From NCBI RefSeq assembly GCF_004010195.1, contig NC_057718.1, positions 84,129,730-84,193,729 on the forward strand: a stretch of 64,000 nt of DNA, given 5' to 3'. Below are positions 25,857-51,176 of the stretch, one piece after another. The number at the start of each line of letters is the position of its first letter. Position 1 is the first letter of the stretch. This DNA is from Chiloscyllium plagiosum. Its lineage: Eukaryota. The notes beneath the pieces are model-generated. The model did no database searches. It worked only from the letters and a program-made list of their open reading frames with translations, and had not been told where the DNA came from. A program made the position numbers and the translations under genes.

Positions 25857-26009
25857 CTTAAAAAATGTGTCGCTGGAAAAGCGCAGCAGGTCAGGCAGCA
25901 TCAAAGGAGAAGGAGAATCGACGTTTCGGGCATAAGCCCTTCCTGTTGTGCTTTTCTAGCAACACATTTTTAGGCTCTGATCCCTATCATCTGCAGTCCT
26001 CACTTTCTC
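25857..26009. mobile_element. Short PLE-derived fold-back element with partial hammerhead
   Basis: 14-bp TSD ctgaaaaatctgtc (25843-25856, 26010-26023). Inverted ends aaaaatgtgtcgctggaaaagc / gcttttctagcaacacattttt. Confidence 0.85.
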
Positions 26010-27840
26010 CTGAAAAATCTGTCAACCTCACTAATGTCCTTCAGGGAAGGAAATCTACCATCCTTACCTAGTCTGACCTACATGTGACTTGGGACCACCG
26101 GCAATGTAGTTAGCTCTCAACTGCCCTCTGAAATGGGCTAGCAAGCCACTCAGTTATATCAATCACTACACAGTCTCACCAAATAAATGAAATGAAAAGA
26201 CCAGTTGGCATCAACCCAGGCACTGGAAACGACAATGGCAGAAACAGCCCTGTTGATCCTGCAAAATCCCTCTTACCAACATCTGGGGGCTGGTGCCAGA
26301 ATTGGGACAGCTGTCTCAGACTAGTCAAGCAATAGCCTGACATTGTCTGTAGGGTCTGATTCTGTGAGTATGACTGTGTTCCAGATATCACCATTACTAT
26401 ACTTCGATATGTCCTCCCACCAGGATACAGACCCAGCAGAGATGGTGGCACTGTGGTATACAGATGGGAGGTATGCAACTTTGAGTCTGGACCCCCTGAA
26501 GTCTCATGGCTTCAGGTTAAACATGGGCAAGGAAATTTCATGTTAATTACCACATACTGTCCTCCCTTGGCTGATGAATCAATACTCCTCCACGTTGAAT
26601 GACACTTGGAGAAAGCACTGAAGGTGGCAAGGGCCAAAATGTGCTCTAGGGTCAGGATCTCATTGCCCACTGCCAAGAGTGGCTCAGCAGCAACATTACT
26701 GATCAAGCTGGCTGGGCCCTTTCCATCATAGCTGCTAGACTGGATCTGCAGCAGGCAGTGAGGGAACCAACACGAGGGAAAAACATACTTGGCCTCACCC
26801 TTACCCTTACCAATCTGCTGTTTGCAGATACATCTATCCATGACAGTATCAGTCGGATGACCACTGTACAGTCCTTTTAGAGATTAATTTCTAGCTACAC
26901 ACTGAAAATACCTTCTATCATGTTGTGTGGTGCTATCACTGTGCTAAATGGAACAGACTTTGAACAGGTCTAGCAACTCAGGACTTAGCATTCATGAGGT
27001 GCTGTGGGCCATCAACAGCAGAATTATACTCCAGCACAACCTGTAACCTCATGGTCCGGCATATCTCCAATTCAACCATTACCATTAAGCCAGGGAATCA
27101 ACCCTAATTCAGTGGAAAGTGCAGGAGGGCATACCTGAATATGAGGTGTCAACCTGATGAAGCTACCAAACAGGGTGACTTGCATGCCAAACTGCATGAA
27201 CGGCAAGTGATAGAGCTAAATAATCCTACAATCAATGGATCTGCAGTCCTGCCACATCCAGTCATGAATGGTGGTGGGCAATTAAACAACTCACTGGAGG
27301 AGGCTCCACAAATATTCCCATCTTCAATGATGGAAGAGCCCAACACATTAGTGCAAAAGATATGGTTGAATCATTCTCAAGAATCTTCAGCCGGATGTGA
27401 TGATGATCCATCTCTGCCTCCAATAGTGCTTTGCATCAAAGATACCAGTCTTTGGCGAATTTAGTTTATTCCATGTGATTATCAAGAAGCAGTCGCAGGT
27501 ACTGGAAACTGCAAAGACCATGAGTCCTGACAACATTTCAGAAATGGTATTGACAATTTGTCCTTCAGAACATGCCACTCCACTAGGCAAGCTACACCAG
27601 TATAACACTGGTATCTCCCAACAATGTGGAAAGTTGTCCAGGTATGTTCTGTATACAAAAATCAGGGCAAACCCAACCCGGCCAATTACTGCCCCATCGG
27701 TCCACTCTGATCGGTAAAGTGATGGAAGGTATTATCAACCATGCTAGAAAGCATCATCTACTCAGTGATGCCCAGTTTGGGTTCTGCCAGAGTCACTTAG
27801 CTCCTGATCTCATTACAGCCCTGGTTCAAACATAGACAAA

Positions 27841-29230
27841 GCCACCAAGATAGTTGAGGATGAAATAATGGTCTCCTTTGACCTTGCAGCCCTTTTCACA
27901 TCAATTAATATTGACCTGGCCAAAGAAACACTAGCATCACTATTAGAAAAATGAGGACCACAAACACCAGACAGCCCCAACTTCATCAGCAAAGACAACA
28001 TGCTCCAGCTAGTGGACCTGTGCCTTACCACCCACTTCTCATTCAATAACAAAACCTACAAACAAGTCAATGGAACACCAATGGGATCACCAATATCAGG
28101 GCTCAGAGCGGATGCAGTAATGCAGAGAATTGAACAAGCTGCCCTCCCATTTATCCAACCCAAACTTTGGGTCCGCTACGTAGATGACACCTTTGTCATC
28201 ACGAAACGGAACAAATTAGAGGAAACCAACAACACCATCAACAATATTCTGACAGGCATAAAATTCACAAAAGAGGAGGAAAATGACAACAGACTCCTAA
28301 TGCTAGATGCGACAGTTGACCGTACAGTTAACGGAGAGCTTCAAACCAGTGTCTACAGAAAAACAACAGACATGGACCACATACTTTACTTCAGAAGCAA
28401 TCATCCCAACACCCACAACGGAGCTGCATCAAGGCATTATTTCAACGAGCTACATCACACTGCAGCATCCAAGACCTAAAAAAAGCAGAATAAAAATATC
28501 TATACAACGTTTTCAAGAAAATCAAGTATCCAACAAATACAATCCACAGATTCCTCAAACAAACCCAAACAAGCAGACAGAACACAACCAAAAACTATAG
28601 CCACATTACCTTACATCAAAGACATATCAGAAATGACTTCCAGTCTACTCAGACCCCTTGGCATCATGGTAGCCCACAAAGCTACCAACACACTTAAACA
28701 GCGACTATTGAACCTAAAGGATCCAATAGACGCCACCAGCAAAATTAATGTCATATACCAGATACCATACAAGAACTGTTTTTTTTTTAAACAAAGCACT
28801 ACATCAGACAAACTAGCAGGAAACCCGCCACCAGCATACATGAACACCAACTGGCCACCAAAAGACACGACCCACTGCCACTAGTTTATATACGTACAGA
28901 CAAAGAAGGACCCCACTTTGACTGGGACAACACACACATCCTAGGACAGACGAAACAAAGACACGTATGACAATTCTTCGAGGCATGGCATTCTAACCAG
29001 AACCCCATCAATAAACACACTGATTTAGACCCTCTCTACCTTCCCTTGGGAGAAAAAAAGAACTGGAAATGACATCACCCACCTTAAGAAACCATAAATA
29101 GAGAGGTGGGACATAACACCAGTGCTTCATCAGAGACTCTCACTGATGTTACCTAGTGTGATGAAATGTCTGAAAACAAACGTTCAAGCTCAGCAAGCAA
29201 CTTATCATCAACCTGAACTACAAATCTTCT
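27841..29230 (+). mobile_element. Penelope-like element (RT plus GIY-YIG), 5'-truncated
   Basis: VSFDLAALFTSI, GTPMGSPISG, WVRYVDDTF, VYRKTT and NVIYQIPY motifs. About 14-bp degenerate TSD (27827-27840 / 29231-29244). Degraded hammerhead near 29143-29170. Confidence 0.9.
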
Positions 29231-29313
29231 CAAAAATGGACAAAATAGTTGAATTCCAAAGGTGAAGGAGGAGAGATAGCCTTTGACATTAAGGCTACAT
29301 TTGACCATAGTGC

Positions 29314-29728
29314 CATAGAATCATACAGCACGGAATCAGACCCTTCATTCCAACTCGTCCGCGCTGATCAGTCATCCCGATCTGACTCTATTTGCCAGTA
29401 TTTGGTCCATATCCCTCTAAACTCTTCCTATTCATATACCCATCCAGGTGCCTTTTAAATGTTGTAATTGTAACAGCTTCCACCACTTCCTCTGGCAGCT
29501 CATTCAATACACATACCACTGTCTGCGTGAAAAGGTTACCCCTCAGGTCTCTGAAATCTTTCCCCTTTAATTTTAAATCTATGCCCTCTGGTATTGGAAT
29601 CCCTACCCTAAGAAAAAGATCTTGGCTATTGACCCTATCCTTGCCCCTCATGACTTCATAAACCTCTGTAAGGTCACCCTATCTCTGAAATCCATGGAAA
29701 AAAGCTCCAGCCTATTCAGTCACACTCT
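29314..29728 (-). mobile_element. CR1 3' fragment
   Basis: DRVNSQDLF...RGNLFTQTVVCVLNELPEEVVEA on the minus strand. Confidence 0.85.
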
Positions 29729-30210
29729 ATATTGTGGTAACTATTAATATACCTGTTTCTATATTTTGTAGTTAAGTGCTTTATTGGAAATAGCACAGAA
29801 TAATATGATTTTTTTTCTTATTTCTTATGTGTGTTACTAAATAGGCTATTAGGTATATCATATTAAATAGACGTTATGAGAAAGAGGGACATAGAAAGAT
29901 ATTCTTACAGACTGATCCATTAAATGTCCTTAATTCTTTGCTATGTCCTGTTATCTGTGGTCTATGTCTAATTAAGTGATAATAAAGTGATTGAAATATC
30001 AAGTTTTTGTTTTTTTTAAACACTAGCTTATAACGTTGGGCTAACTGGGTAAGAAAACGTTCCATGATTACAAAGAGCATTGGCAATTCTGCCAATTAAT
30101 TATTTGTTGCATTTTTATGCTCTTTTATCAAGGCCAACTTATGTTTAATTTGTGTGTGCATCTTTATCCAGTGTTTTAATCTGATTTAAACGCATGTTTT
30201 TGTGTTTTAG

Positions 30211-30344
30211 TGACTTTTTGCTCTTGGTGCTGAAGGATCTGATAGTGTCTCGGCATGATCTACGTGTTATCCTGATGAGTGCTACTCTAAATGCACAGCT
30301 GTTTACAGAGTACTTCAATTCTTGCCCCAGTATCCACATTCCAG
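30211..30344 (+). CDS. DHX57: DHX57 coding exon (motif III SAT)
   Basis: ttttag|T...CCAG|gtagt. DFLLLVLKDLIVSRHDLRVILMSATLNAQLFTEYFNSCPSIHIP. Phase 2 in, 1 out. Confidence 0.96.
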
Positions 30345-31593
30345 GTAGTATTAGATCTGCATAACACAAATATTTGTTTTAAAGTTACATCCATTATCAT
30401 CTTAAAGATTACGTGAGTATCCATCCTTTTATTGCTACACAGGTACAATTTGACGCAAAACAAGATTTTGAGAGGAGAGTAGGAAGTGGAGAGACAAAAA
30501 TAAGGAGGAGGTTTTGAACTCAGAAGAAGGGAAGAGAATTGGCTTTTAGAATTGCTTATCTTGAGTAGGGAAAATAATATCGATAGTCTCTGCCATTTAT
30601 GAAATGTTTTGGCAAAGTGAGGTTTGCAATTCTGCAACATAGTGTTCAAGAAGTAATCAGAATCTGAAAAAAGAACCACTGGTCCCAAAACATAAACTCT
30701 GCTTTATTTCCATAGATACTTCCAGATATGCTGAGTTTTCCAACAATTTCTGATGTTGAATCAGATAAGACATGTTTCAGGAGTGATTTATAGACGGGGA
30801 TGAGAATTTTAATATCAATAATTTTTTTTTAACATGATAAAACATTGGAATGCACTTCACAGGAGTATTATGAATTGGACACTGAACCAATTAAGATATT
30901 CAGGCAAATGACCAAAGGTTGGTCACAGAGAGGTTTTAAGGGACTCTTAAAGAAGGAGTGAGAGGAAGTGGTGTAGATATTAAACAGAAAAGATACAGCA
31001 CAGATTTGTTGGGAATGTTGTCTTGTTTTGTAAATAAAATATGAAATAAGTATGTTAAATTAGAGGTTTTTATTGATTAGGAGATTAAAGTCTTAAACTT
31101 GGAGGAATGTTGCAATAATTTTGGACTGTTAAATTCCAATTCTTCAAAACCATGATGCGAACTATGTATTGTGAACCTAAGTTGACAATTTCACTGTGAT
31201 AGATCATGTGATAAATGATATGGAAATTGAAAATATTGCACACTGATTGTAAGCTATCTAACGTAAGGGAGGGCTCTTTACAAAGCAGGATAGAGAGCGC
31301 TTTACTTCATGACAAACTGTGTTGTTCCTGGCCAAGAGCATTTAATGTAGAACCCCAATTTAAATGTCTTGCTTTTTCTATTTCCTGATACAAGGCAACA
31401 TCTTATTGTGCCAGTGCTTTATCCTCTCTAATAATCTCAATATTGTTCCTATCATTTGGAATTCAAGTCTGTACGCAGTATTCCAACTCTAGTCTTATAG
31501 AATGATCTGATGGTGTTGCTTCAAATTGGAAAGGAACAGAATAGAATTGAAGGAATCATCATTTTAACATTAATTATAAAGATTTAGGAAGGA

Positions 31594-31819
31594 TTAGATT
31601 AGATTAGATTAGGTTCCCTACGGTGTGGAAACAGGCCTTTTGGCCCAACCAGTCCACACCGACCCTCCGAAGAGTAACCCACCCAGACCCATTTCCCTCT
31701 GACTAATGCATCTAGCACTATGGGCAATTTAGTATGGCCAATTCACCTGACCTGCACATCTTTGGACTGTGGGAGGAAACTGGAGGAAACCCACGCAGAC
31801 ACGGGGAGAATGTGCAAAC
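31594..31819 (-). mobile_element. HE1-like SINE, 5'-truncated, with TSD
   Basis: (TAATC)n tail and 11-bp TSD tttaggaagga (31583-31593, 31820-31830). Confidence 0.9.
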
Positions 31820-32150
31820 TTTAGGAAGGAGAGACGGATAACTGTATAGTGGTTTATAACACTGGAATAAACTATTAGAATTGGTGATTGAAAAATCAGA
31901 CTATGTCAACATTTTAGGGTAGGTAGTTGAAGAAAAACCAATGCATAAACACACAAGGAATTTAGGCACATAGGATTAGGATTGCTGCATGTGCAGGAAC
32001 AGTAATATAAGTTGATTCAGCCAAACAGTTCTGTTCTTGAATTCTGTTCAAGAATTATATTTAGAACTGGATTCAGATGTATTCATAAAGGAATAGTTTG
32101 AGTAAAGCTTTCAAAACTGTGTCAACACTAGTCAGACCTCAGGTGATGTG

Positions 32151-33027
32151 CAGAGGAACCTCGATTATCTGAATACGAATTATCCGAAAATGGGATTATC
32201 CGAAGAAGATCTCGAGGTTCCAATGGAAACATTATATCAAAGACGTGTTTCCAACAGTGATCACATCTTTTGTTTACAGTGATTAAACAGGCACCGTCTC
32301 CAAATGACTGACTACCGGCCCCTCTCTCCCCACACTTTCCCTGGAGTTCTACACAGAGGTGTTACCTAAACACCCCCTTCCCCAGATAATCTCTCCAACA
32401 TTATCCTGTACAGGGCAAAGGTGGAACCTGTCCAAAAGTTGCAGCAAAAAATTGTGTGGCTGTGGCTGTGTGCGTGCTATTTGGAGACTTACCCCACAAA
32501 GGCAACTGCAGCAGCAGTCTTGTTGTTGGTGTACGGTCTGGCTGGAAAAAATGAGGTCTGCAGATGCTGGAGATCAGAGCTGAAAATGTGTTGCTGGAAA
32601 AGCGCAGCAGGTCAGGCAGCATCCAGGGAACAGGAGAATCGACGTTTCGGGCATAAGCCCTTTCCTGAAAAAGGGCTTATGCCCGAAACGTCGATTCTCC
32701 TGTTCCCTGGATGCTGCCTGACCTGCTGCGCTTTTCCAGCAACACATTTTCAGCTACAGTCTGGCTGCCCCAGCGAGGGGGCGAGTGTGCATGGAGTTAG
32801 GGGGCGGGTGAGAGGTGGTGTTGGAAGGGTTTGGAGGCAGGGGGCAGTGTCTGATGGTGTTGGGGGCGGGGCCTTGCACGCTGTGTCCTGCTGCAGTCTC
32901 CTGAACGGGGAACAGACTTTAAAAACTCCGAGCCTCAGAGGAAAGGCATTTATCGATTAACCGAATAATCGATTATCCGAACAAAATAGTGCCCGCCCAT
33001 CTCATTCGGATAATTGAGGTTCCCCTG
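32151..33027. mobile_element. Non-autonomous Tc1/mariner (Tigger/pogo-like) DNA transposon (MITE)
   Basis: 24-bp TIRs CAGAGGAACCTCGATTATCTGAAT and the reverse complement CAGGGGAACCTCAATTATCCGAAT. TA on the right flank, TG on the left. Subterminal ATTATCCGAA repeats. No transposase ORF. Confidence 0.8.
32545..32755. mobile_element. Short PLE-derived fold-back element: perfect 86-bp inverted repeat with 6-nt spacer
   Basis: Arms 32578-32663 and 32670-32755 are exact reverse complements. 12-bp TSD ac(g/a)gtctggctg (32533-32544, 32756-32767). Confidence 0.93.
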
Positions 33028-33654
33028 TATACAGTTCTGGGTCCAATGTTTCAGCAAGGATATGAACGCATTGGAGAGGGTGCAGAAGAGGTTTATGAGA
33101 ATGATTCCAGAGGTGAGAAACCTCAGTGATGAAGTTAGATGGGAGAAGTTGAGACTGGATTTCCTTGGAGAAGAGAAGGCTCGAAGGAGATTTGCTGGAA
33201 GTTTTCAAAATCGTGCAGTCTGGACAGAGTAGATAGGGAGAAACTGTTCTTCCTTCTAAATGGATTGAGAATAAGAGGGTACTGATTAAAAGCAGTAGAT
33301 AAGCAGATACAAAAGAAGTAAATGCGATATGAGAAAAAAGTTCTCACAGTAGTCAAGATCTGTAATGCACTGCCTGAAAGTGCGGATGAAGGCAGGTTTA
33401 ATCAAGGCAGCATTAGGTGATTATTTGAATAGAAATAACGTGCAAGGTTGTAGAGAAAACGCAGGAGAATGACACCATGTCATAATGCTCATTTTGAGAA
33501 CCGGTGTTGACATAATGGGCCAAATAGCTTCCTAATTCTGCATTGTAACACTTCACTCCACAAAAAGTGGAATGATTTATTTACCCATTCCACTTCTTGT
33601 GATGTTTTATGCTCTAATTTCTCAGAACATGATTGTACCTCAGAATAGCACCTA

Positions 33655-33945
33655 TTTTGATTTGATTTATTGTTGTCACATGCACCTAAGCACAGTGAAA
33701 AGTTTTTAGTGTGCAGTAAAGGTAGATCATAACGTAGAAGGACATACAAATCCTAGGGTGTTTAAACAGAGCGAGGCATAAAAGGTTATGACTGCATAGA
33801 AGGTGCACAAAAGTAGATCGGTATTAGATTTGAAATTAGAGAGGGCCATTCTAATTGTAGCAGGGAAGCTGTTCTTGAACCTGTTGGTACATATGTTTAA
33901 GCTTCTGTATCTTTTGCCTGACAAAAGAAGTTGGAAGAGAAGTTT
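33655..33945 (-). mobile_element. Rex1/Babar-like LINE 3' fragment
   Basis: Minus-strand LFQLLLSGKRYRSLNICTNRFKNSF, characteristic of the Rex1 C-terminus. Confidence 0.7.
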
Positions 33946-33954
33946 GACACCACC

Positions 33955-35170
33955 TGGAACAAAGCAACCCTCTTGATTGACACCGCATCCACTGCCACCA
34001 TCACCAACTCTCAGTAGCTGCAGCGTGTACCATCTACAAGATGCTCTGCAGAAATTTAGCAAGGTGCCTCGGACAGCATCTTCCTCGACCACAGTTACTT
34101 CCACCTACAAGGACAAGGACAGGGACAAGCAGATACATGGGAGCACCACCACCTGCAAATTCCTCTCCATGCCACTGACCATTTTGACTTGGAAATACAT
34201 CTCTGTTCTTTCACTGCCACTGGGTCAAATCCTGGAATTCCCCCTCTAATCGCATTGTGGGTCTATCTACAGCACATGGACTACAGTGGTTCAAGAAGGC
34301 AGCTTGCCACCACCTTCTCGAGGACAACTAGGAATGGGCAGTAAATGCTGGCCAGCCAGCAATGTCCATTTTTTTAAATTTCAAAAATATACTTTATTCA
34401 TAAAATACTTTGATGATCTGTACAACTGGACATGCCATACATATGTAAACATTCCATTTGTTTGCATACTGAAAACAGAGTAATCATTCTTCTTTACAGG
34501 TCTGTACGATTACATTTTTAGCTGAGGCGTCAGCAGAGCCCAAATGACTGCGCGGGCCCCCTGTTCTTCTTTAGACAGGCAGATGTTACACGGTGGTCTT
34601 TCCCCACCGCGCCTTGGCGGCAGCTGCCCCAAGCTTCAGCGCGTCCCTCAACATGTAGTCCTGGACCTTGGAATGTGCCAGTCTGCAACACTCAGTCGGG
34701 GTCAACGCCTTCAGCTGGAAGATCAACAGGTTTCGGACCGCCCAGAGAGCGTCCTTCACCGAGGTGATGATCCTCCAGGCATAGTTGATGTTCGTCTCGG
34801 TGTGCATCCCGGGGAACAGACCGTAGAGCACGGAGTCCCGCGTCAGGGCGCTGCTCGGGACGAACCTCGACAAACACCACTGCATTCCTCTCTAGACGAC
34901 TTCTGCGTAGGCACATTCCAGAAGGAGATGTGTGACAGTCTCGTCCCCCCCCGCAGCCGCTTAGAGGGCAGCGTGCGGTGCGGCTGAGAGTCCGGGTGTG
35001 CATAAAGGATCTCACAGGCAGAGCCCTTCTCACCACCAGCCAAGCCATGTCTTGGTGCTTGTTGGAAAGTTCTGGCGATGAGGCATTCTGCCAAATGGCT
35101 TTGACAGTCTGCTCAGGGAACCGCTCGATAGGATCCGCCAGCCAGCAATGTCCATGTCCCACGAGTGACT
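33955..35170 (+). mobile_element. 3' end of a non-CR1 LINE, with a Tx1 element inserted in its tail
   Basis: Tail ggacaactaggaatgggcagtaaatgctggccagccagcaatgtccat|gtcccacgagtga is split by the Tx1 insertion. Confidence 0.65.
34370..35136 (-). mobile_element. Tx1/L1-clade LINE, 5'-truncated, young
   Basis: IWQNASSPELSNKHQDMAWLVVRRALPVR, CPLSGCG zinc-knuckle region, KDALWAVRNLLIFQ. AATAAA and a short poly(A) on the minus strand. Perfect 19-bp TSD gccagccagcaatgtccat (34351-34369, 35137-35155). Confidence 0.88.
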
Positions 35171-35551
35171 AAACTTTAAAACAAAAAACCAAGGATATCC
35201 GAGACAAAAGAGATAATGGTCAGCTGTGTCACACTTGCCACTAAGTCTGACAGTACAAGTCTTTGTGAACTTGAACACAAAATTTCACCTGCAACACCTT
35301 TGTAAATTTATGGGAATTTGTTGGCTTCAGATAAAATCTGACTACAATGCCTGTCTTTTCATACTTTTTGATTTTTAAACCTGTACCTATGAAGATGAAC
35401 CAACATTTACCAACCTTTCCTGTGCTCTTGCTTCAAAGACAGAAATTTGAATTCACAAGCTCTGTAACATTAAGGACAAAAAATGTAAAAGTCAAAATTG
35501 TACAATTAAGTGAAAGTAAAAATACTTAATCTTGTCATTCTGTTATTTTAG

Positions 35552-35606
35552 GACATACTTTTCCAGTGGCTCAGTATTTCCTGGAAGATGCACTTACTAT
35601 GACTAG
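35552..35606 (+). CDS. DHX57: DHX57 coding exon (55 bp)
   Basis: ttttag|GA...ACTAG|gtaag. GHTFPVAQYFLEDALTMTR. Phase 1 in, 2 out. Confidence 0.93.
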
Positions 35607-36259
35607 GTAAGCATTATTTATGTTGTATCAGGACAAAGAGCTACCATACTCCTTCATGTAATTGTGAATTACATTTTCTTTTGAAGCTTCACAAATTTGA
35701 AGAATGTAGCTTTGATTTTAGCCAGTCACGAAATTTGTGCATTCAATCTTTTTACCTGCTTATGTGCTCTGGATTCTGAATGCAGTCTCTGGCTGGGGAC
35801 AGATCTTACCTTGTTATCTGCTTACTTGTAGTAGCACTTTGGTTAATATTGACTCTTTTTCATGCTAATTGTCTTCCTCTTGCGCAAATGAACAAAGAAT
35901 GCTCACACCCATAAAACTGCATGAAAATGTGATCATTTTATACATTTAACAATGGAAGCAGTACAAAATTCAGCTCAACAGAGTGCACTTTTCAGTGTGC
36001 TTACTTAACTCTGGGAATTTGGTGAGTAAGGGAGGAAGAGTTATTCTAATCTATGCAGAATGAGGAATAGTCTGAGCAATTGGAGGACAGCAAGTCCAAA
36101 GGTATAAATAAGATAAGCAGGTTGAATGGTGAGTTTTAATTTCTTTGTTGTCTAAGCTAGGAGGATAGTTTAAGCTAGGATCGGGAAAGTATATGCACAG
36201 TCTTAAATGTAGAACTTTTCTTGTTAAACTGATTATGTAACTAGAACTCATCAAATAAT

Positions 36260-36760: not shown

Positions 36761-36789
36761 ACGAAAGAGATCTTGGACTCTAGAAACAG

Positions 36790-38786: not shown

Positions 38787-38827
38787 GAGTGGAACTTGCA
38801 GGTAGTGGTATTGCCAAGTATCTGGGC

Positions 38828-40045: not shown

Positions 40046-41773
40046 AGTGACTTGAAGGTGGCAATAGAGTAACATGACATTTTGTCTATCTGTTGTTTCT
40101 ATTATTCCTTCTGTCTTGTCCTTGCATTCTTTGAAAATTTTCTTGCCAGAAATTAAATTGAGCTTCAAAATGAGTCATTCATTGCTATGCAGAACAGTTT
40201 GAAAGATGTGGGGTAACTTTTTAATGAAGCATCAAGATTCAGATCTGATTTTCCTCATTATCTGTGAAGTATTTTATTGTTGAAAACATTACTGACTGCG
40301 CCATTTGAAAAGTGTACACAGGAGGAGTTGAGTCCAAGATCTAATAAATGTCAGTTGCTTGGATGCTCAAATCTGTTTCTCTTTACTGTATCATTTTAGC
40401 CCACATCATGTCAGCCATTAGCTTCTTTTAAGGCCACCTTAAAGCATTTCACACTAAATTACATATTGCACTAACCATTTGAGTAAAGATCTTTTATTTC
40501 TCTGAGGTCTGAGTTGTAATTTCACCCATGTCAACCAGTTGAAAACAGGTAGTGTGATGAAAACCTCAGTGCTGTTTGTACGAGCTTGCAGGCTGCATTT
40601 TTCTTGCATTAGATTTGTGGCTATACTCAAAGATGTACTTAATTGGCCATTTCATTTTGGAATATTCTGAGACTGAATATATATGTTGAATAAAGTTTTC
40701 TTTATTTCCTTTATCCGCTCCCTTCATTCATTCTCACCTTAACTACAGAATTTATTTTCTTCAAAATCATAAAGTATTTTGGGAAAAACAATACTGTAAT
40801 TTATATGGCACTTTTCAAAACATCCCAAAACATTTTAAAGCCAATGAAAAGCTTTTTGAGGTATAATTTTAAATATACATTGTAGAGCTTCCTACATTTC
40901 AGTCAAATTGCACAGAATGACCACATTAGTGACATTGCTAAAAACGAAAGGAACCTTCACACCAAAAAGATGCTATAATTTAGGCAACAAAATAAAACTA
41001 TGGTCTTAATACATTTTGAGAAACCTACTAAGGTCTTTGAAAGAGTAAATGATCCTGATCATTGCCAAGCTAGTTTTATGTGTTTTATATACACTGGGTG
41101 GAAAACCTTTTTTTTTTCAGTAGTTTATTGTAAGCACATTACAATCTGGTATCTTGCCAGCTAGACATGCGACTGACACTTTGGTCATATTATTGTACAT
41201 ACAGCACCTTTAGAGTTCAGATATCAACTGGTTAGGGCAGTAAGAGGCACATACATACAGCTCAGGTTGGCAGTATACTGTCTTCAAACTCTTAAATTAA
41301 GGGCGTTGATTTTGTTGAAAATAGAGGATGACGTTCATTATGTCCGACAAATACTGCCCACTAACATTGCATGTTAGCCCAACTATATGTCTTCCCATGA
41401 TGATTTCTTCATCCCAGCTTTGAAAAGTAATCACAAGCTCTGCTCTCTCAGCTCTGATTTCATTGTGGATTAATACAGCAATATCAAGCAGACTGTATTG
41501 TAACAGAAACCTTTCCAGTGTAGTGTAAACAGTAAATGGACTTTGGACTGTTTTGTAGTTTAATAAGCTTCAAATACCTTCACAACAAAAAAAAAGTTTT
41601 CCAAACCCCCATTGTGCACAGTATTTTGATAATGAAATATTAAACCTTTGGAATTGGACAAGTAGAAATGTATTTTGGTGGGGTGGGTTTGCATTGATTT
41701 CATTTTCTGGGAAGAGATCAAAGTATCTGTTATGACCAATCCTCTGATGTAAACATCCACATTGTTATTCCAG

Positions 41774-41985
41774 ATATGTTTTGGAAGATAAAAGCCCCTA
41801 TGCACGAACAGGGAAGTTAAACCAGTATGCTGAGCTTTGGGGAGCTAAAGGTGAAAATAACAAGAAGTTGTTGGACACATTTGAGGAACAGCTAAGATCT
41901 TTACATCTACAAGATCAATCGTCAATCAAAGACAGCATCCCAGACCAGCACCTGACTGTTGATCAACTGATGATCCGATACAAAG
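41774..41985 (+). CDS. DHX57: DHX57 coding exon
   Basis: ttccag|A...AAAG|gtagg. YVLEDKSPYAR...LRSLHLQDQSSIKDSIPDQHLTVDQLMIRYK. Phase 2 in, 1 out. Confidence 0.94.
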
Positions 41986-42760
41986 GTAGGTTTCTGCAAA
42001 AAAAAAACAGTATTTTCCTATGCGTGACTGCTATTCAAAGAAACGATAAAATTGCTAAACAAACCATCCTTATAGCTTTAGGAAGTGATTTAAATCTGGC
42101 CACAATATTAATTTATAGACTGAATCTCCCCAAAACTTGTTGGCATTCTTGGCCAATGTAACTTGGTTGCTAGTGAATATGTGACACAAGAATTGCAATC
42201 TTACTTAATGTGATGATCCAATGATGGTAATACTGGACATACCCCTGAATGAAACCTAGCTTTATTGATCATATATTTCATTTTTACAATTGGTTATTGT
42301 GGTGGTTAGTCACTAAAACATACTCACTTGAGGCCACAGTTGTTCGTAAACAACAGAACGTAATCCTTACGCAAAGAAAAAAAAGACATATGACAGAAAA
42401 ATCTTTATACAAACAGCCTAACAAAGAATCATGCCAGAGAAATTTCACTCCTATCTGAATTCTTTAAGCTTTTATTCAACTGGCTCTTTTCAGTTTCTTG
42501 GATGGCAGAGACATTTTCACAAGTCTTTTCTGATCAACTGGCATGAACATTGTGCAATCTGATATCCCACACCTTTTCACGTCCAACAATGTGATCAAAA
42601 TCCAAACTCTCCAGGCTTGGGAACTGCATAGAATATAGAACTTTGGCTAGCTGAACTAAGATCTTGTACTCCTGCTAGGAAAAACTGTTTTGCCTTCAAA
42701 ACTGATCTCTTGATTCTATTGAATTGAACACTTGAGCCTTCTATTCTGAAGTCAAAACTA

Positions 42761-43260
42761 NNNNNNNNNNNNNNNNNNNNNNNNNNNNNNNNNNNNNNNN
42801 NNNNNNNNNNNNNNNNNNNNNNNNNNNNNNNNNNNNNNNNNNNNNNNNNNNNNNNNNNNNNNNNNNNNNNNNNNNNNNNNNNNNNNNNNNNNNNNNNNNN
42901 NNNNNNNNNNNNNNNNNNNNNNNNNNNNNNNNNNNNNNNNNNNNNNNNNNNNNNNNNNNNNNNNNNNNNNNNNNNNNNNNNNNNNNNNNNNNNNNNNNNN
43001 NNNNNNNNNNNNNNNNNNNNNNNNNNNNNNNNNNNNNNNNNNNNNNNNNNNNNNNNNNNNNNNNNNNNNNNNNNNNNNNNNNNNNNNNNNNNNNNNNNNN
43101 NNNNNNNNNNNNNNNNNNNNNNNNNNNNNNNNNNNNNNNNNNNNNNNNNNNNNNNNNNNNNNNNNNNNNNNNNNNNNNNNNNNNNNNNNNNNNNNNNNNN
43201 NNNNNNNNNNNNNNNNNNNNNNNNNNNNNNNNNNNNNNNNNNNNNNNNNNNNNNNNNNNN
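42761..43260. other. Assembly gap (500 N)
   Basis: Run of N. Confidence 1.
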
Positions 43261-44565
43261 TTCTCACACACACACAGGCACAGACACTTTGAGCTTCCCG
43301 CAACAACTCCTCTAGCTTTTGAATATTCTTCTGGACGTCTGGCCATAAGTTAGTTACGAAGTGCACCCTCAGTAGCCCTTCTGACACGGGCTGTTTTCCA
43401 TTGATATATGCTTTATTTTATATATCGCCAATTCCCCGTACTTTCGTAAGTCCCAACCACCAAGGTAATACTTAAAGGTCTCTTTTCTTACCTTGGTCTG
43501 TGCACAGAGTTACCTGGTCGTTTTGGTGCGCCCCGCCCACGGCAATTCCTGCAGCAAATACTGCTGCCCCCAGTCGCCCGGATATATCCTTTAAGACCTT
43601 TCCCTACCCGGGTCTTGTGCACAAGAGTTGCCCGACCAAACCCACTGCGTCTGCCCACCTTGTTTCCAGGGTCTCCCAGTTCGGATCGTACTCTCCCAAA
43701 CCGCAAACGACAAGCAAGGGAATCGGAGATCACCGAAATCGGCGAGGTGCACCTTCCCCGTCGTCCCAAGAGTGTCGAGCGGTCGGAGATTTGGATCCCG
43801 GAACGAGGCCCCCAATTGTGAGAAACAGAACTCACTCACAAATCAGCCTGAGACAAAGCCTTGGAAACAAGAACAATTTATTACGGCCTTGCAAGTATCG
43901 GACACTTCTGCAATCAAGCAGAAATGCCCGCGAAAACAGAGCATGTAAGCATTCTTATTCAGTTTGTAAGTTGCGGAATCACTCCTCCCTTTTCCCATCC
44001 TATCATAAGCCGAATACCTCACTTGTTTTTTTTCTAGTTATTTTCTTATCTGGCCATCCTGCTGTCCTTGTATGTCTGCATTCTTTGTTCCTTGTTTCTC
44101 AGAGCTTGTTCTTTTATCCAGTTTCTCTTATACTATAAGCTTTGTTGTGAAATGCCCCTGCTGCTTCTTTTTGTGGTCAGCTACAACCCTTCATAGTTAT
44201 TTCCTAGCTTAAAACTATTTTCTTTAAAAGACCCTCTATATTCATTAAAGTCTTAGCCTTAAGTATGCCACATGCTACAAGAATTCTGCGACCATTTGTA
44301 TAATGTTCCCCTTCCCCTCCCTCCACAACACCCCCTCCCCCACCTGCAGAAACTACACTTCTAATCTCCCACATTTTATTTTCTTGTTCTGGAGTTAGAG
44401 TGCATTGTTAAGCCAGTTAGTTAATTTCAGTCAACCAATTAGTGCAAGGGGAACCTATTCCTATATAAGCCATCGGAAGAAAGACGTGTCCTATGAAGCA
44501 TTTACAGTTCCTTATTGGGGGAAAAAAAAACAAACAGGCCTAATTAACAAAGACGAAGATATCAT
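43261..44565 (-). mobile_element. Endogenous retrovirus / LTR element: 5' LTR, tRNA-Pro PBS and leader, cut off by the gap (upstream LTR boundary uncertain)
   Basis: Minus strand: AATAAA (43877-43882), LTR end ...CTCACA (43817), AT, then TGGGGGCCTCGTTCCGGGAT (43814-43795), an AAG|GTAAG donor (about 43487-43494) and a TG-repeat leader. Confidence 0.75.
43795..43814 (-). promoter_or_regulatory. Primer-binding site complementary to the tRNA-Pro 3' end
   Basis: TGGGGGC(C)TCGT(T)CCGGGAT versus the canonical Pro PBS TGGGGGCTCGTCCGGGAT: two single-base insertions. Located 2 nt after a CA LTR end. Confidence 0.78.
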
Positions 44566-44597
44566 AGGTTCAATTTTTCTACCATAAAAGTTTGAGA

Positions 44598-47085
44598 TGG
44601 AGTCAGACAGCTTGGTAACAGACCTTTCAGTCCAAATTGTCAAGGCCAACCAAGTTTCCCAAACTACTAGGCCCATTTGTCTGCATTTGGCCCACATTCC
44701 TCCAAACCTCACTTATTCATGTACCTATCTAAATGTTTTTGAAATATTGTAACTCTACCTACATCTACCACTTCCTCTGCAGTTCATTCCACATACTAAC
44801 TAACTACTGTGTGAAAATGTTGCCCCTTGGGTTCATTTTAAATCTTTTTCCTCTCACCTTAAAAATGTGCCCCTTAGTTTTGAACTCTCCCATTCCAGGG
44901 TAAGACCTTTGCTATTCACCTTATCTATGCCCCTTATGATTTTATAAACTACTATAAGGCCATCCTCAACATCCTGTGCACCAATGAAAGAAAAGTTCCT
45001 AGCTTATCCATATAACTCAAACCCTCCAGGCCCAACAATATCCTGGTAAATCTTTTCTCAACCCTTTTTCCAATTTAGTAACATCCTTTCTGTAGCAGGA
45101 TGACGAGAACTGTACACAGTACTCTAAAAGAGGCCTCTCATCATCCTGTACAATCTCAATGTGACATCCCAACTCCTATACTCAGTGGTCTGAGAAATCA
45201 TGGCAAGCTTGTTGAATGCAGCCTTAACCACCCTGTCTATTTATGATGCCTGAACCTCTAGATCTCTCTGTTCGACAACACTACTTAGGGTCCTGCCATT
45301 AACTGTACAAGTCCTGCCCTTTTCATTTCACCAAAATGCAATAACTCGCATTTATCCAAATTAAATGCCATCTACCACTCTGCACCCCATTGGCAGAATT
45401 GATCAAGATTTGTTTGTAATCTTAGATAACCAATGTTGGTGTCATCTGCAAAATTACTAACCGTGCCTCATAAATTCTCACCTAAATTGTCTATATAAAT
45501 GACAAACAAAAGTGAACCCAGCACCGATACTTACACAATACAGTTGGTCACAGGCCTCCAGTTCGAAAAACAACCCTCCACCACCATCCTCTGTCTCCTA
45601 CTGTCAAGCCAATTTTGTATCCAATTGGCAAGCTCTCTCTGAATCCCATGTGATCTAACTTTACTAATTAATCTATCATGTGGAACCTTGTCAAAGACTT
45701 TACTAAAGTCCATGTAGACAATATCTACTGCTCTGTCCTCATCAATCTTTTTGGTTACATCCGCAAAATAAAAAGTTAGCCAAGTTTGAGAGACTTGATT
45801 TCCCACGCACGAAGCCATGCTGAAAATCCCTAATCAGTCTTTGCATCTCCAAATGCATGTAAATCCTATCTCTCAGAATTCCCTCCAACAACTTATCCAC
45901 CACTAATGTCAAATTCACAGGTCCGTAGTTCCCAGGCATCCCCTTAGAGCCTTTCTTAACTAAAGGCACAACATTAGCCACCCTATGATCCTCCAGCACC
46001 TGACCTATTCTATAGAAGTTACAAATATCTGTGCTAGGGGCCCCGCAATTTCTTCCCTAACGTCCCACGACATCCTGGGAGACACTTGATCAGGTCCTGG
46101 AGAATTATCCACTTTTTGTCTTTTAAGATCTCCAGCACTTCCTGTTTGTAATGTGGACTGTTTTCAGTCTGAAGTCACATGACACAGGTCATACTCCAAC
46201 AGGTTTAGTTGAAATCGCAAGCTTTCCTTCGTCAGGTGAAGTGACATGTCACCTGATGAAGGAGCAGCACTCTGAAAGCATGTAATTTCAAATAAAACTG
46301 TTGGACTATAATCTGTCATGTGACTTCTGACTTTGTCCACCCCAGTCCAATACCGGTGTCTCCACATCATGACTGTTTTCAAGATGTCAGTATTTATTTC
46401 CCCAAGTTCCCTAGCCCACATTTCTTTCTCCACAGTAAAAACTGACATACAATATTCATTTCATATCTTTCCCATCTCCTGTGGTTCCACTCATTGACCT
46501 CCTTGGTGATCTTTAAGGCGCCGTATTTTTCCCCTAGTGGCCCTTTTGCTCTTAATGTATTTGTAGAATCGCTTAACATTATCTGCCAAAGCTATCTCAT
46601 ATCCCCTATTTTCCTTCTTGCTTTCCCTCTTAATAATGTCCCCATACCCTTTGTACTCTTCAAGAGATTCACTTGATCCCTGTAGTCTATACATAATATA
46701 TGACAACTCCTTATTCTTGAGCAGACCTTCAAAATCTTTATTCATCCATTGTTCCCTACTCTTGCTAGCCTTACCCTTTACTCTAACCGGGGCATAATGC
46801 TTCTGAATTCTCATTATCTCATGTTTGAAAGTCTCCTACTTGCCAGTCACCCCTTCACCTGTGAACAGTCTGTTCCAATCAACTTTTGAAAGTTCTGTCT
46901 CGTAACATCAAAATTTGTCTTACTCCAATTTAGAATTTTAACTTTTACACTAGACCTACCCTTTTCTCCAATTATTTTAAAACTAGTAGAACTACGATCA
47001 CTAGTCCCTAAGTGCTCCCATACCAACACTTCAGTCACTTGCCGTGCCTTATTTCCCAAGAGAAGGACGTTTTGCTCCTTCTCTA
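44598..47085 (-). mobile_element. CR1 LINE ORF2 (EN end to 3' tail), degraded
   Basis: HLGTSDRS, ANVVPLVKKG...NYGPVNLT, QHGFVRGKS and VDIVYMDFSKVFDKVPH on the minus strand. Confidence 0.92.
46167..46370. mobile_element. Short fold-back element of a second PLE-related family, with hammerhead core
   Basis: 11-bp TSD gactgttttca (46156-46166, 46371-46381). Imperfect inverted repeat 46167-46331. CTGATGA-A-GGAG-CAGCA-CTCT-GAAA at 46253-46277. Confidence 0.85.
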
Positions 47086-47604
47086 GTAATCTTGTCAAAG
47101 ATCCAATATTATACAGAATATTGGTTTGCCTAAACTGATACGCAAGATTACAGTGTAATCCAATTTCCCATACAGTCCTTGATCTTTGAAGCTTTTTGTG
47201 CATTGAGCACTCTGTCGATCTCTCCTCAATTGTTCAGAAAGTGGGGCTCCTTGCACTTGGTTTCCCTTGTAACTCTGATTGTAGCAACAACATTCCTAGA
47301 AATTAATACTATTCTGGCATTGGTATTGCTAACATAGGGTCAACTTTCAAATATGTACTGGTACTGATGATGCAAATTTTATGATCCACTTCCTCAAATG
47401 ATTCTTGCCTCAGCTCATAAGCCACTTTTTTCACTTTTAATAAACTATTTCAATGGTCTCCTGGCAGACCATCCATCTTGAACCCTCAGATAGCTTCAGC
47501 TTATCCCAAAACTTTGTTCTTTGCATCTTATATTGCACCAACCCCCATCTATCTAAATTAAATATACTTTAAACAGATCTAGTAACTCAAATCTCGACAT
47601 CCAC

Positions 47605-48262
47605 GAGGAGCTGTGGGCCATCATCAACAAGAAAATTGCAATCAAGAATAATCTGAAACCTCATTCCTCAACATATTGCCTAATGTTTTATCACCAAGCC
47701 AGGATGTCAACTCTTGTTCAAGAAGAATGTAGGAGGACATGCTGGGAGCAGTACCAGGCACACCTTATACTGAGTTGTCAGCCTGTCAAAGCTACAACAC
47801 AGGACTACTTGGATGCTAAACTCCATAAGCAGCATGCAACGGACAGTTAAACAATCTCATAATTAACAATCTAAGCTGTGCAGTTCTGCCATATAGCTGT
47901 GAATGGTGGTGAACAATTAAACAATTTGCTGATAAGGAAGCTGCAATTATATTCCTTTCATCAACAATGCTTAACACATCCGTTCAAAAGACATGTTTGA
48001 AGCACCTAAACTTCTCAGCATCAGTCTTCAGCCAGTTTGGTTAACTCTTCGTAATATCAAGAACAGCTGATAGTGCTGAATACTGTAAATATTGTAGTCT
48101 TTGTCAAAATGCTAGTAATAGTACAGAAGACTAGTAATCCAGAATTAGCTGCACCCCTTGTCAAACTCTTCTAGTTCAGCTACAATACAGGCATCTGTAT
48201 AATAATGTGGAAAATTTCCTAAGTATGTCATATCTACGTAAAGTAGGAGAAATACAGCCTGG
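47605..48262 (+). mobile_element. Old internal fragment of the LINE family at 25688-29310
   Basis: Colinear with 26995-27690 (gctgtgggccatca, gaatggtggtg...aattaaacaa, caatgtggaaa). Confidence 0.65.
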
Positions 48263-48511
48263 TCAGAGATGGACTTTTTATGCTTTCTTTATGTAGGATC
48301 AAAAAATGGATTCTGCGTTCATGTGACCTAGAATTTGTGGATTTACTACTAGTTTGCTTTTGTAGATTGTATTCCAATCAAATCCAAGATTAATCTCTGA
48401 ATGGCAGAAAGGATGTGCTAGCTCAGGCACCTGTTAGACACATTCCAGCTACCAAGTGGTGGTCTCTGCGAGCTGTTGCAGCTGGTCATTTTCTGAAATA
48501 GCTGCACTTGT

Positions 48512-48829
48512 GGGCGGCACGGTGGCACAGTGGTTAGCACTGCTGCCTCACAGCGCCGGAGCCCCGGGTTCAATTCCCGCCTCAGGCGACTGACTGTGTG
48601 GAGTTTGCACGTTCTCCCCGTGTCTGCGTGGGTTTCCTCCGGGTGCTCTGGTTTCCTTCACAGTCCAAAGATGTGCAGGTCAGGTGAATTGGCCATGCTA
48701 AATTGCCCGCAGTGTTAGGTAAGGGGTAAATGTAGGGGTATGGGTGGGTTACGCTTCGGCAGGTCGGTGTGGACTTGTTGGGCCGAAGGGCCTGTTTCCA
48801 CACTGTAATGTAATCTAGTAATCTAATCT
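48512..48829 (+). mobile_element. HE1-like SINE, full length, young
   Basis: gggcggcacggtggcacagtggttagcactgctgcctcacagcgcc...gggttcaattcc, CpGs intact, (TAATC)n tail. Confidence 0.93.
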
Positions 48830-50010
48830 CACTGAATCTATTGTGCTTGGCTGTGACCAAAATGAGTAAGATTAAAGTTAAGTCTTATCTTCAAACTCAA
48901 ATTCAATATTGATCTGTAGGTCTGAAGGAATGACTTTGTTCTTAATGGGGTATGGAAGTCTACTAAAAGCATTAGTAATAGTCATTAAGGAGCCTGGTTT
49001 TCATTGTCCTCCAACATCATACCCTTGCATCTTCACAAGTAGGCATTGTAATGAGGGAGGTGCACTTGTGAAGGTTTCGGTTGATCATTTCTAATGATTT
49101 GTGCTTGGTATGATACAATTAAATTCTTGCCAAATAGGTACATATGAAACCAGTATAATCTGTAAAGTAGAGCAGAGAATTTATCTTTCAAATGTTGGAG
49201 CAATTTTCCTAAGTTGCCATAAGGACCAAACATAATTGGCTGGCTGTCCTGTAATAGATATGCTTCGAGGGATGCATCTGGCTTTCAATGCTTGAAGCTT
49301 TGAGGCATCATAATATTGAAAAATACATTGGCTGGATGATGAAGCATTTTTGAGAAATTGAAAGATGTGCTGGTTATCTTCCTGCCACGTGTATGAACAT
49401 AGACGTAGTCATACAGCACAGAAGAGGTCCTTCCACCTAATGAGTCTGTGCTAACCTAACTACACTAATCCCACTTTTCAGCATTTGACCCATAGACTTG
49501 AATGTTATGACATTTCAAGTACATGTTCATGTACATTTTAAACGTTTTGAGGTTTCCTGCCTCTATAATGTTCCCAGGCATTGTATTCCAGATTCCCACC
49601 ATTCTTTGAGTGAAAAATTATTGGCTCAAATCTCCTGAAAAACACATAGCCTTCACCTTAAAATGATGCTGCCCTTGTTTTTGACCTTTCCACTTAGGGG
49701 TGACAGCTGCATTCTATCCACCCTGTCCATGCCCCATATAATCTTACACTGCAATCAAGCCTTTTCTGCTTGAAAGAAAACAGCACAAGCCTATCCAGCC
49801 TCTCTTCTTTGCTAAAATGCTCTAACTCGGGCCACATCCTGGCAAATCTCCTTTGCACCTCTTCCAGTGCAACCACATCTTTCCTGTAGTGTTGCGATCA
49901 GAACTGCATTCAGTGTTCCAGCTGTAGACTCTCCAAAATTTTGTACGGCTCCATAACAATCTTCCTGCTCTTATAATCTGTGTCATGACTGGCTAAAAGC
50001 AAGTATCCTA

Positions 50011-50354
50011 CTTGCGGAACGTTTCAGGGAACACCTCTGGGACACCCGCACGAATCAACCCAACCATCCCGTGGCAGAACACTTTAACTCCCCCTCCCAC
50101 TCCGCCGAGGACATGCAGGTCCTTGGCCTTCTCCATCGCCAGACCCTGACCACGTGACACCTGGAGGAAGAGCGCCTCATCTTCTGCCTAGGAACCCTCC
50201 AACCACACGGGATGAATGTAGATTTCCTGAAGAAGGGCTTATGCCCGAAACGTCGATTCTCCTGCTCCTCGGATGCTGCATGGCCTGCTAAGTTTTTCCA
50301 GCACCGCATTTTTCAACTCTGGTCTCCAGCATCAGCAGTCCTCACTTTCTCCTA
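50011..50354 (+). mobile_element. PLE fragment: GIY-YIG C-terminus joined directly to the hammerhead and 3' tail
   Basis: LAERFREHLWDTRTNQPNHPVAEHFNSPSHS...EERLIFCLGTLQPHGMNVDF, then CTGAAGA...GAAACGTC. Confidence 0.88.
50227..50254 (+). ncRNA. Minimal hammerhead ribozyme core (PLE-type)
   Basis: CUGAAGA-A-GGGC-UUAU-GCCC-GAAA-CGUC: all core nucleotides, a 4-bp stem II, a palindromic ACGU stem III and a GUC cleavage triplet. Stem I is weak, and activity is untested. Confidence 0.7.
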
Positions 50355-50588
50355 GTTAAATTCCATCTACCACTGATCTGTCCATTTAACCAATTCTTCT
50401 ATATCTTCCTGTAACCTTAGACCTCCTTCCTCAATTAACTAACCATCCAATTCTCGTGTACTTCTCAATCCTCGCCACAATCTCATCTATATCATGTATA
50501 TATAACATGAACAGTAAGGGACTCAGAAACAGAAGCAGAAATTGCTCATCTGTAAAGAGAAGTCAGAGTCAAGGTTTCAGTTCAAGTG

Positions 50589-50673
50589 TTGAGAGTGTGT
50601 TACTAGAAAAGCACAGTAGGTCAGGCAGCATCTGAGGAGCAGGAAAATTTATGTTTCGGGCTACAGCCCTTCA
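50589..50673 (-). mobile_element. Short hammerhead-bearing PLE-derived insertion
   Basis: 12-bp TSD tcagttcaagtg (50577-50588, 50674-50685). Minus strand reads CTGATGA-A-GGGC-TGTA-GCCC-GAAA-CAT. Confidence 0.8.
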
Positions 50674-51044
50674 TCAGTTCAAGTGACCCTTGCTCAGAAC
50701 TGATTGTAGCTCGGAAAATGTCAGTTTATAAGCAGAAGATAGGGAGGGGTAACGAGTAACTGTAACGAGTAAATGATAAGTGGGGATAGAACCCAAAGAG
50801 AGATGAACAGTTGGACAGACAAAGGACTTGATAATGATCTGGCTGTGAGGATGAATGGCTATTAATGGGGACTGTTAGTGGCTAAGAATGGGTTGTGTGT
50901 AATAACAGACTGTGATATCAAGACCTGGTATGTGGGGTTGTGGTAAGGACATGGGAGGGCTCACGCCCTAAAGGTCTTGAACTTAATATTGAGTCCGGAA
51001 GGCTGCAGGATCCCCAAGCAGGAACTGAACTCTCAAATGTCTCA

Positions 51045-51176
51045 GGGCAGAAGTGGGTACTGCAGATGCTGGAGATTAGAGTCAAGATTAGAGTGGTGCT
51101 GGAAAAGCACAGCAGGTCAGGCAGCATCTGAGGAGCAGGAAAAATCGACGTTTCAGGCAAAACTCCTTCATCAGGA
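51045..51176 (-). mobile_element. Short hammerhead-bearing PLE-derived insertion
   Basis: Minus strand reads CTGATGAAGGAGTTTTGCCTGAAACGTC (51174-51147), followed by the same tail as the 32545 element. No clear TSD. Confidence 0.78.

What the first reader, a model, noticed from the sequence alone, without database searches (positions are those of the whole stretch)
25857..51176. Family of tiny hammerhead-ribozyme-bearing, often fold-back insertions derived from Penelope-like elements, with a recurrent breakpoint at the CUGA box
Seen: five short insertions (25857-26009, 32545-32755, 46167-46370, 50589-50673, 51045-51176). Four have clear 11-14 bp TSDs. Each consists only of PLE terminal sequence from the hammerhead onward, and three add an inverted copy. 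In every case the element ends, or its symmetry centre lies, at or within about 10 nt of the hammerhead CUGA box. The 50011-50354 fragment also jumps from the GIY-YIG end straight to CUGA. The pattern occurs in two different sequence families (GGGC-TTAT-GCCC and GGAG-CAGCA-CTCT stems). Established: PLEs carry minimal hammerheads and often have inverted terminal repeats. Inference: these are either a non-autonomous retrozyme-like class mobilised by PLE RT/GIY-YIG, or stereotyped products of RT stalling or template switching at the ribozyme. The boundary is about 28 nt upstream of the predicted GUC cut, so self-cleavage alone does not explain it.
Basis: partly seen in the sequence, partly recalled or inferred. 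Interest (0 to 1): 0.75.

Follow-up and report, generated by a model that had tools for sequence, protein, structure and literature searches.

The report
Penelope stubs ending at RNA cap
These tiny inserts and hairpins are aborted copies of ordinary Penelope-type jumping genes, each built anew; they stop just in front of the ribozyme, often with an extra G, which likely marks the copying enzyme running off the capped start of the element's RNA and offers a testable clue to how this poorly understood class inserts.

Summary
The five inserts and four TSDs are real, and so is the breakpoint cluster. In an unselected 1.2-Mb genome sample, 114 of 168 family-A arms reaching +6 end within -10..+6 of CUGA, about 10x the flanking rate; the GUC cut shows no peak. 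They are not an independent retrozyme-like family: 61 of 63 fold-back junctions differ, short and long copies are intermixed on a (weak) tree, and none of the five keeps an intact hammerhead. The boundary follows a TATA-Inr promoter, not CUGA: the Inr A lies at -4 (family A) and -8 (family B), 31-32 nt below a TATA-like box. Copies ending there carry G in 65 and 68 of 100 cases (neighbouring positions 13-19). Best reading: RT primes at two internal sites (+91, +126) and runs off the capped 5' end; priming both target strands gives tail/tail-less head-to-head pairs (54 of 63). The cap and start site are inferred; RNA reads were uninformative. Inverted pLTRs, tails and internal initiation are published; I found no paper on the cap signature. 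Earlier agents of this scan reported the same on other DNA.

The parts
25843..25856 (.). left TSD (14 bp); right copy at 26010-26023
25857..25942 (-). family A tail-less arm, from about +91 back to +5 relative to the C of CUGA (no CUGA box)
25942..26009 (+). family A tailed arm, +57 to tail end; no hammerhead
32532..32544 (.). left TSD (13 bp, 1 mismatch); right copy at 32755-32767
32545..32662 (-). family A tailed arm, +125 back to +6
32662..32754 (+). family A tail-less arm, -3 to +91; hammerhead core damaged (G8 to A); arms 100% complementary over 86 nt
46156..46166 (.). left TSD (11 bp); right copy at 46371-46381
46167..46243 (-). family B tail-less arm reaching about -8 (predicted start site), with a deletion in stem II
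46248..46370 (+). family B tailed arm, about -4 to +122; U16.1 of the hammerhead changed
50011..50226 (+). 3' end of the family A ORF (end of the GIY-YIG domain), joined by a 3-nt microhomology to the terminal segment; about 229 nt of 3' UTR missing
50224..50354 (+). family A terminal segment, -3 to tail end; the only intact minimal hammerhead among the listed pieces (CUGA at 50227)
50589..50677 (-). family A solo tail-less stub ending at CUGA (last 4 nt shared with the right TSD); TSD 50577-50588 and 50674-50685
50540..51030 (-). older PLE 3' fragment that hosts the 50589 stub in its hammerhead; TATAAA at 50725-50730, 29 nt above the A of a TCAGTT initiator-like motif at 50701
51045..51176 (-). 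family A solo tailed stub, -2 to about +130; no TSD found; stem II damaged
53041..53490 (+). older PLE 3' fragment that runs through the boundary; TATAAA at 53335-53340, initiator-like A at 53364, decayed hammerhead from 53368

Best explanation
The inserts are dead-end products of autonomous endonuclease-bearing Penelope-like elements, each made anew, in which the reverse transcriptase likely primes 90-130 nt inside the 5' end of the element's mRNA and likely runs off its capped start just above the hammerhead. Steps: (1) shown: a TATA-like box and an initiator-like A precede CUGA, then two 3' end points (+91 and +126, the 'tail') and the ORF start (+163). (2) Inferred: Pol II starts at that A and caps the RNA. 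(3) From Frangieh 2024, in another PLE: GIY-YIG nicks both target strands and RT starts at two internal sites that bound the tail. (4) Inferred: priming on the 5' copy of the terminal repeat gives a 95-135 nt run-off cDNA ending in a cap-templated C. Priming on the downstream copy of a read-through transcript gives the arms that pass the boundary (54 of 168 in family A). (5) Inferred: one primed strand gives a solo stub; both strands primed, one at each start site, give two overlapping cDNAs that are joined head to head by microhomology or filler, with one arm often trimmed. The hammerhead is a passenger that happens to lie at the RNA's 5' end.
For: End rate 5.9%/nt at -10..+6 against 0.57%/nt downstream and 0.45-0.59%/nt upstream in family A (233 arms); 5.0%/nt at -13..+2 against 0.4-0.8%/nt in family B (46 arms) (windows chosen after seeing the data). 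TATA-like motif at -35 from CUGA in 35 of 58 long family-A references (found in 51) and TATAAA at -40 in 6 of 11 family-B references (found in 10), i.e. 31-32 nt above the A. Genome-wide exact patterns: 5,724 copies lose the templated base directly above A(-4), and 65 of the first 100 listed have G, against 13 of 100 one base down and 19 of 100 one base up; Fisher P 2e-14 and 5e-11. Family B: 3,971 copies, G in 68 of 100 against 18 of 100; P 8e-13. None of the 21 G loci of each family fetched continues into upstream element sequence. In the unselected sample G is 7 of 13 arms that truly end at A(-4). L182 and L266/L267 carry the G on both arms. 54 of 63 fold-backs pair a tailed with a tail-less arm (about half expected at random). 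Untemplated G as a cap signature is described for L1 and SVA (PMC3287187 passage).
Against: No direct map of the start site or cap: the one RNA run with reads covered both strands alike and showed no start pile-up. Ends are spread over -10..+6, and -3 is as frequent as -4 (15 each; 6,146 against 5,724 pattern counts). Many G's are ambiguous because the target site or the opposite arm also supplies G (e.g. L213, L217, L222, L224, L244, L247); this fits cap-C annealing but does not prove it. None of the window's own five inserts shows an unambiguous cap G. Letter counts were made by hand on the first 100 listed rows, all from contig C1. D. virilis Penelope is reported to use a TATA-less internal promoter, so the promoter geometry is not universal.
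Confidence: 0.78

Rival explanations
1. The RNA 5' end is at that A, but the G comes from cap-independent terminal addition by RT or from microhomology choice, or the end is made by processing rather than by transcription start.
For: Many G's overlap a TSD or the opposite arm; no cap data.
Against: Canonical TATA-to-Inr spacing in both families; G is enriched only at this one position.
Confidence: 0.1
2. RT stalls at the folded (or protein-bound, dimeric) hammerhead and the cDNA is joined there.
For: A share of arms end inside the motif (+1..+20); the protein assists hammerhead folding in Anolis Poseidon.
Against: RT meets the 3' side of the ribozyme first, and no peak lies there; the peak is beyond its far edge and shifts by 4 nt between families with the promoter; a stall does not predict an extra G; the motif alone folds no better than shuffles (z 0.64 and 0.75).
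Confidence: 0.06
3. Fold-backs arise by self-priming (snap-back) on an antisense template, as proposed for Adineta Penelope, or by hairpin formation of one cDNA.
For: Arms usually share a subfamily loop sequence; short palindromes occur at junctions (e.g. window 46240-46251); proposed in PMC3846280.
Against: Both outer ends fall at the two distinct RT start sites (54 of 63); either arm can be the longer one at the junction; two loci carry the G on both arms; L017/L018 has arms with different stem-II loops.
Confidence: 0.04
4. A non-autonomous, retrozyme- or SINE-like family that amplifies from short masters.
For: Very high copy number (227 insertions in 1.16 Mb of called bases); two junction types occur twice; the tree is poorly resolved (82 columns, 2 starred branches).
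Against: 61 distinct junctions in 63; short and long copies intermixed, with identical rows across the classes; stubs lack the upstream TATA; intact hammerheads are no more frequent in short (25 of 52) than in long (14 of 28) family-A arms.
Confidence: 0.02

Closest known systems
EN+ Penelope-like element insertions with inverted pLTR, 30-40 bp tail and TSD (Adineta Pen2a_Av, PMC3846280 passages; PMC8557442 passages and Fig. 2 legend)
   Same: Head-to-head inverted 5'-truncated copy, tail on one end only, TSD, TATA and Inr-like motifs in the pLTR.
   Different: Here most insertions are reduced to the 90-130 nt below the start site, by the hundred thousand, with a sharp shared end point and an extra G; PMC3846280 proposed self-priming on an antisense template instead.
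Anolis Poseidon (PAc) in vitro mechanism (Frangieh 2024, PMC11167929; main text parts 1-2 of 4 read)
   Same: Two internal RT start sites bounding the tail; both strands nicked and extended; hammerhead cleavage not needed.
   Different: There the ORF starts inside the hammerhead, here at +163; the part I read does not address the cap, the 5' run-off point or genomic fold-backs.
Minimal hammerheads of PLEs (Cervera and de la Pena 2014, PMC4209133 passages)
   Same: Type I minimal motif with palindromic helix III; single motifs and opposite-strand pairs 100-700 bp apart, ascribed to truncated PLEs.
   Different: The passages seen give no breakpoint map and no link to the transcription start.
Non-LTR retrozymes (bioRxiv 10.64898/2026.07.22.740005, parts 1-3 of 5 read)
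   Same: Non-coding, hammerhead-bearing, derived from PLE pLTRs.
   Different: Retrozymes are head-to-tail tandems with at least two complete hammerheads; these are solo or head-to-head, TSD-flanked, mostly with broken ribozymes, and not amplified as units.
L1/SVA untemplated 5' G (PMC3287187 passage) and L1 twin priming (recalled)
   Same: Extra G at the 5' junction attributed to copying the cap; two primings at one site give an inversion.
   Different: In L1 the G marks full-length copies and the inverted parts do not overlap; here it marks the shortest copies and both arms copy the same stretch.

Membership tests
EN+ Penelope-like element | RT followed by a C-terminal GIY-YIG endonuclease in the parent element | tested here: met
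   L271: GIY-YIG Pfam PF01541 E 3.4e-5, above cut-off. RT recognised by eye from DKG, LPKIHK and SLYTSIP motifs in broken frames; Pfam gave no RT hit. Family B: GIY-YIG-like translation upstream in L158, not scanned.
EN+ Penelope-like element | pLTR with minimal type I hammerhead | tested here: met
   CUGANGA, stem II with variant loops, GAAA; Rfam has no hit; cleavage untested.
EN+ Penelope-like element | optional 30-40 bp tail, inverted 5'-truncated copy, TSD | tested here: met
   3' ends bimodal at about +91 and +126; 63 fold-backs, 38 with TSD against 1 in shifted controls.
Neptune/Nematis clades | Zn-finger-like linker between RT and EN | tested here: met
   C-x3-4-C-x2-C motif just before the GIY-YIG in L038 and L271; feature as stated in PMC8557442.
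Neptune clade | placement in an RT phylogeny | not tested
   No reference PLE proteins were fetched; Neptune is a recalled resemblance.
Non-LTR retrozyme | head-to-tail tandem units each with a complete hammerhead | tested here: not met
   Solo or head-to-head; 0 of 5 intact.
Non-LTR retrozyme | self-cleavage and circular RNA | not testable with these tools
   No suitable RNA data.
Independent non-autonomous family (SINE/MITE-like) | shared fixed structure and own clade | tested here: not met
   61 of 63 junctions distinct; not clustered on the tree, which is weakly resolved.
Existing Repbase/Dfam entry | match to a curated consensus | not testable with these tools
   No such library on hand.

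The most novel reading that the evidence does not exclude
Penelope-like elements routinely make a 'strong-stop'-like cDNA from the capped 5' end of sense mRNA, and an RT dimer primes both nicked strands at two fixed internal sites. This one mechanism would explain the tail, the inverted pLTR and, through jumps of the run-off cDNA or a second priming, the regeneration of the pLTR promoter. The stubs are then a fossil CAGE library that maps each subfamily's start site to the base.
Probability: 0.55. Interest if true: 0.68.

Novelty: new variant of a known kind. Interest (0 to 1): 0.5.

Why it matters
How PLEs make inverted ends and regenerate their pseudo-LTR is open: Schostak 2008 says no obvious mechanism is known, and Arkhipova 2013 left sense versus antisense template undecided. 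A cap signature on either or both arms points to sense, capped mRNA and two separate primings. It can be tested directly in the existing in vitro PLE assay. It also warns that most genomic 'hammerhead' hits here are by-products, not a ribozyme RNA class.

Tried and rejected
Rfam scan: no hammerhead model hit, only weak hairpin matches to miRNA models at the 32545 palindrome. RNA search: no RNA holder listed. Of two raw RNA runs laid, one gave 1,899 reads on both strands with no start pile-up and the other none; this is not evidence on the start site. Folding of the motif alone: no better than shuffles. Breakpoint at the GUC cut: rejected. G templated by a variant master: rejected, as no upstream element sequence follows. 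G from a jump onto the cleaved 3' product (which starts GAUUC in family A): possible for A, but family B's post-cut sequence is unlike its G-ACAA start. Apparent 300-nt extension of the 50589 stub: an artefact of the older host element. 'Chompy'-type palindromic repeats (recalled) could not be checked: one paper, a table row only. Paper searches that found no description of the cap signature or of this breakpoint: 0 papers; 0 papers; the library lacks most subscription papers, and no supplements were read. The first solo-TSD search was narrow (11 of 63 solos ending at the boundary, 0 in controls); some 'solo' copies have a very short inverted arm that the profile missed. Arms with N or a locus edge near the 5' end, or ending before +60, were left out of the counts (318 pieces kept after merging, 13 of them from the window; 279 counted).
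Full report
Positions are given relative to the C of the hammerhead CUGA box (0). Family A has the GGGC/GCCC stem, family B the GGAG/CTCY stem.

Observation. TSDs are 14, 13 (one mismatch), 11 and 12 bp for four of them; none was found for 51045-51176 or the 50011 fragment. Mapped on long copies: 25857 joins an inverted arm ending at +5 to a direct arm starting at +57; 32545 joins +6 to -3; 46167 joins about -8 to about -4; 50589 ends at 0 and 51045 at -2. None of the five passes my minimal-hammerhead pattern; the 50011 fragment does. The 50589 stub lies inside the hammerhead of an older PLE copy. The 50011 jump is a 229-nt UTR deletion over a 3-nt microhomology, not seen in the 23 other loci visible (30 fetched, output cut).

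Parent element. The window lies in a 3.56-Gb genome. L271 holds a broken but near-complete family-A copy: 3' UTR, a TATA-like TTTATCT 31 nt above an initiator-like A at -4, hammerhead, tail end at +126, ATG at +163, then RT motifs, a Cys-rich linker and GIY-YIG (Pfam GIY-YIG E 3.4e-5, no Pfam RT hit). Family B also follows a GIY-YIG-like frame. The linker fits the Neptune/Nematis clades as described in PMC8557442 (passages); no tree was made.

Is the cluster real? I took 120 stretches of 10 kb at fixed round coordinates (39,785 N) and mapped every arm against real long copies. Of 233 family-A arms, 168 reach +6 and 114 of these end within -10..+6, with peaks at -4, -3 and -2. The end rate there is 5.9%/nt against 0.57 downstream, 0.45-0.59 upstream and 0.79 around the GUC cut; family B (46 arms) gives 5.0 against 0.4-0.8. 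The windows were chosen after seeing the data. 3' ends are bimodal at about +91 and +126, matching the two RT start sites that bound the tail in Anolis Poseidon (PMC11167929, parts 1-2 of 4). The sample holds 63 fold-backs and 164 unpaired arms, which extrapolates roughly to several hundred thousand insertions genome-wide.

Independent family? No. Fold-backs are single insertions (TSD in 38 of 63, 1 in shifted controls), but 61 of 63 junctions differ. On a tree of 64 short and 22 long arms the label needs 21 changes against 19.5 in shuffles, and identical rows span both classes; the tree has only 82 columns and is weak. Intact hammerheads are as common in long (14 of 28) as in short (25 of 52) family-A arms. 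The structure does not meet the tandem definition of non-LTR retrozymes (bioRxiv 2026.07.22.740005, parts 1-3 of 5).

What sets the boundary? Long copies carry a TATA-like motif at -35 (35 of 58 family-A references; motif found in 51) or TATAAA at -40 (6 of 11 family-B references; found in 10), 31-32 nt above an initiator-like A at -4 or -8. Exact genome-wide patterns show 5,724 family-A copies whose match stops directly above A(-4), against 15,396 that continue. G precedes the A in 65 of the first 100 listed; one base down or up it is 13 and 19 of 100 (hand counts, contig C1 only; P). Family B repeats this at -8: 68 against 18 of 100. Of 30 loci fetched per family, 21 each have G and none of these continues into upstream element sequence, whereas most T-preceded family-B loci are long copies with a substitution. 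Some G's are supplied by neither arm nor target (L214, L228, L233, L237, L249, L253, L255, L269), two insertions have it on both arms (L182, L266/L267), and many others overlap a TSD or the opposite arm, as expected if a terminal C anneals to a G. In the unselected sample the raw count was G 7, T 13, A 2; 9 of the T's are long copies in which upstream element sequence continues, mostly a subfamily with T there, leaving G 7 of 13. An untemplated G is the accepted cap signature for L1 and SVA (PMC3287187 passage). Against: -3 ends are as common as -4, no insert in the window shows an unambiguous G, and RNA reads gave no start site.

Fold-back mechanism. 54 of 63 pair one tailed with one tail-less arm, 8 have two tail-less arms and 1 has two tails; either arm can reach further at the junction. 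Arms mostly share a subfamily loop, with L017/L018 an exception. With the in vitro finding that both strands are nicked and extended, the simplest reading is two primings, one per strand and start site, on sense RNA, both running toward the cap and then joined with trimming. Whether one or two RNAs serve is open.

Comparison and novelty. Inverted pLTRs, tails, TATA/Inr motifs in pLTRs (PMC3846280 passages; PMC8557442), opposite-strand hammerhead pairs from truncated PLEs (PMC4209133 passages) and a start site in the pLTR (PMC2377424 passages) are known. I found no paper on cap run-off stubs in PLEs (limited library, no supplements read, no Repbase/Dfam). After reaching this reading (notes) I saw that other agents of this scan had reported the same for this and other genomes; that is not independent support. 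Verdict: known kind of insertion with an apparently unpublished, testable mechanistic signature; interest 0.5.

Noticed in passing
window 50540-51030 (-) and 50589-50677: A younger stub inserted into the hammerhead stem of an older PLE copy, and a second stub (51045-51176) lies about 15 nt from the same copy's 5' end; possible preference for inserting into PLE sequence.
   Followed up: partly
   Followed up: partly
L271 about 4000-5600 (G000:C18): The N-terminal part of the family-A ORF holds a long perfect 18-bp minisatellite and an inserted unrelated repeat; Ser/Thr/Pro/Ala-rich in one frame.
   Followed up: no
L042 790-810 (-), L271: The tail end reads like a splice acceptor (branch-like CTCAC, pyrimidine run, AG); no donor was looked for. 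D. virilis Penelope has a 5' UTR intron.
   Followed up: no
L034, L045, L048, L041: Frequent internal deletions in the C-rich 3' UTR between the ORF end and the hammerhead.
   Followed up: no
L205 2332-2800: Only 1 of 93 tailed family-A arms in the sample continues into the ORF 5' end, so promoter-bearing 5' ends are rare.
   Followed up: partly
window-wide, e.g. 1-256, 8544-8698, 15600-16080, 18800-19420, 48512-48804: Many dispersed copies of other repeats (LINE 3' ends and a tRNA-SINE-like family by recalled resemblance).
   Followed up: no
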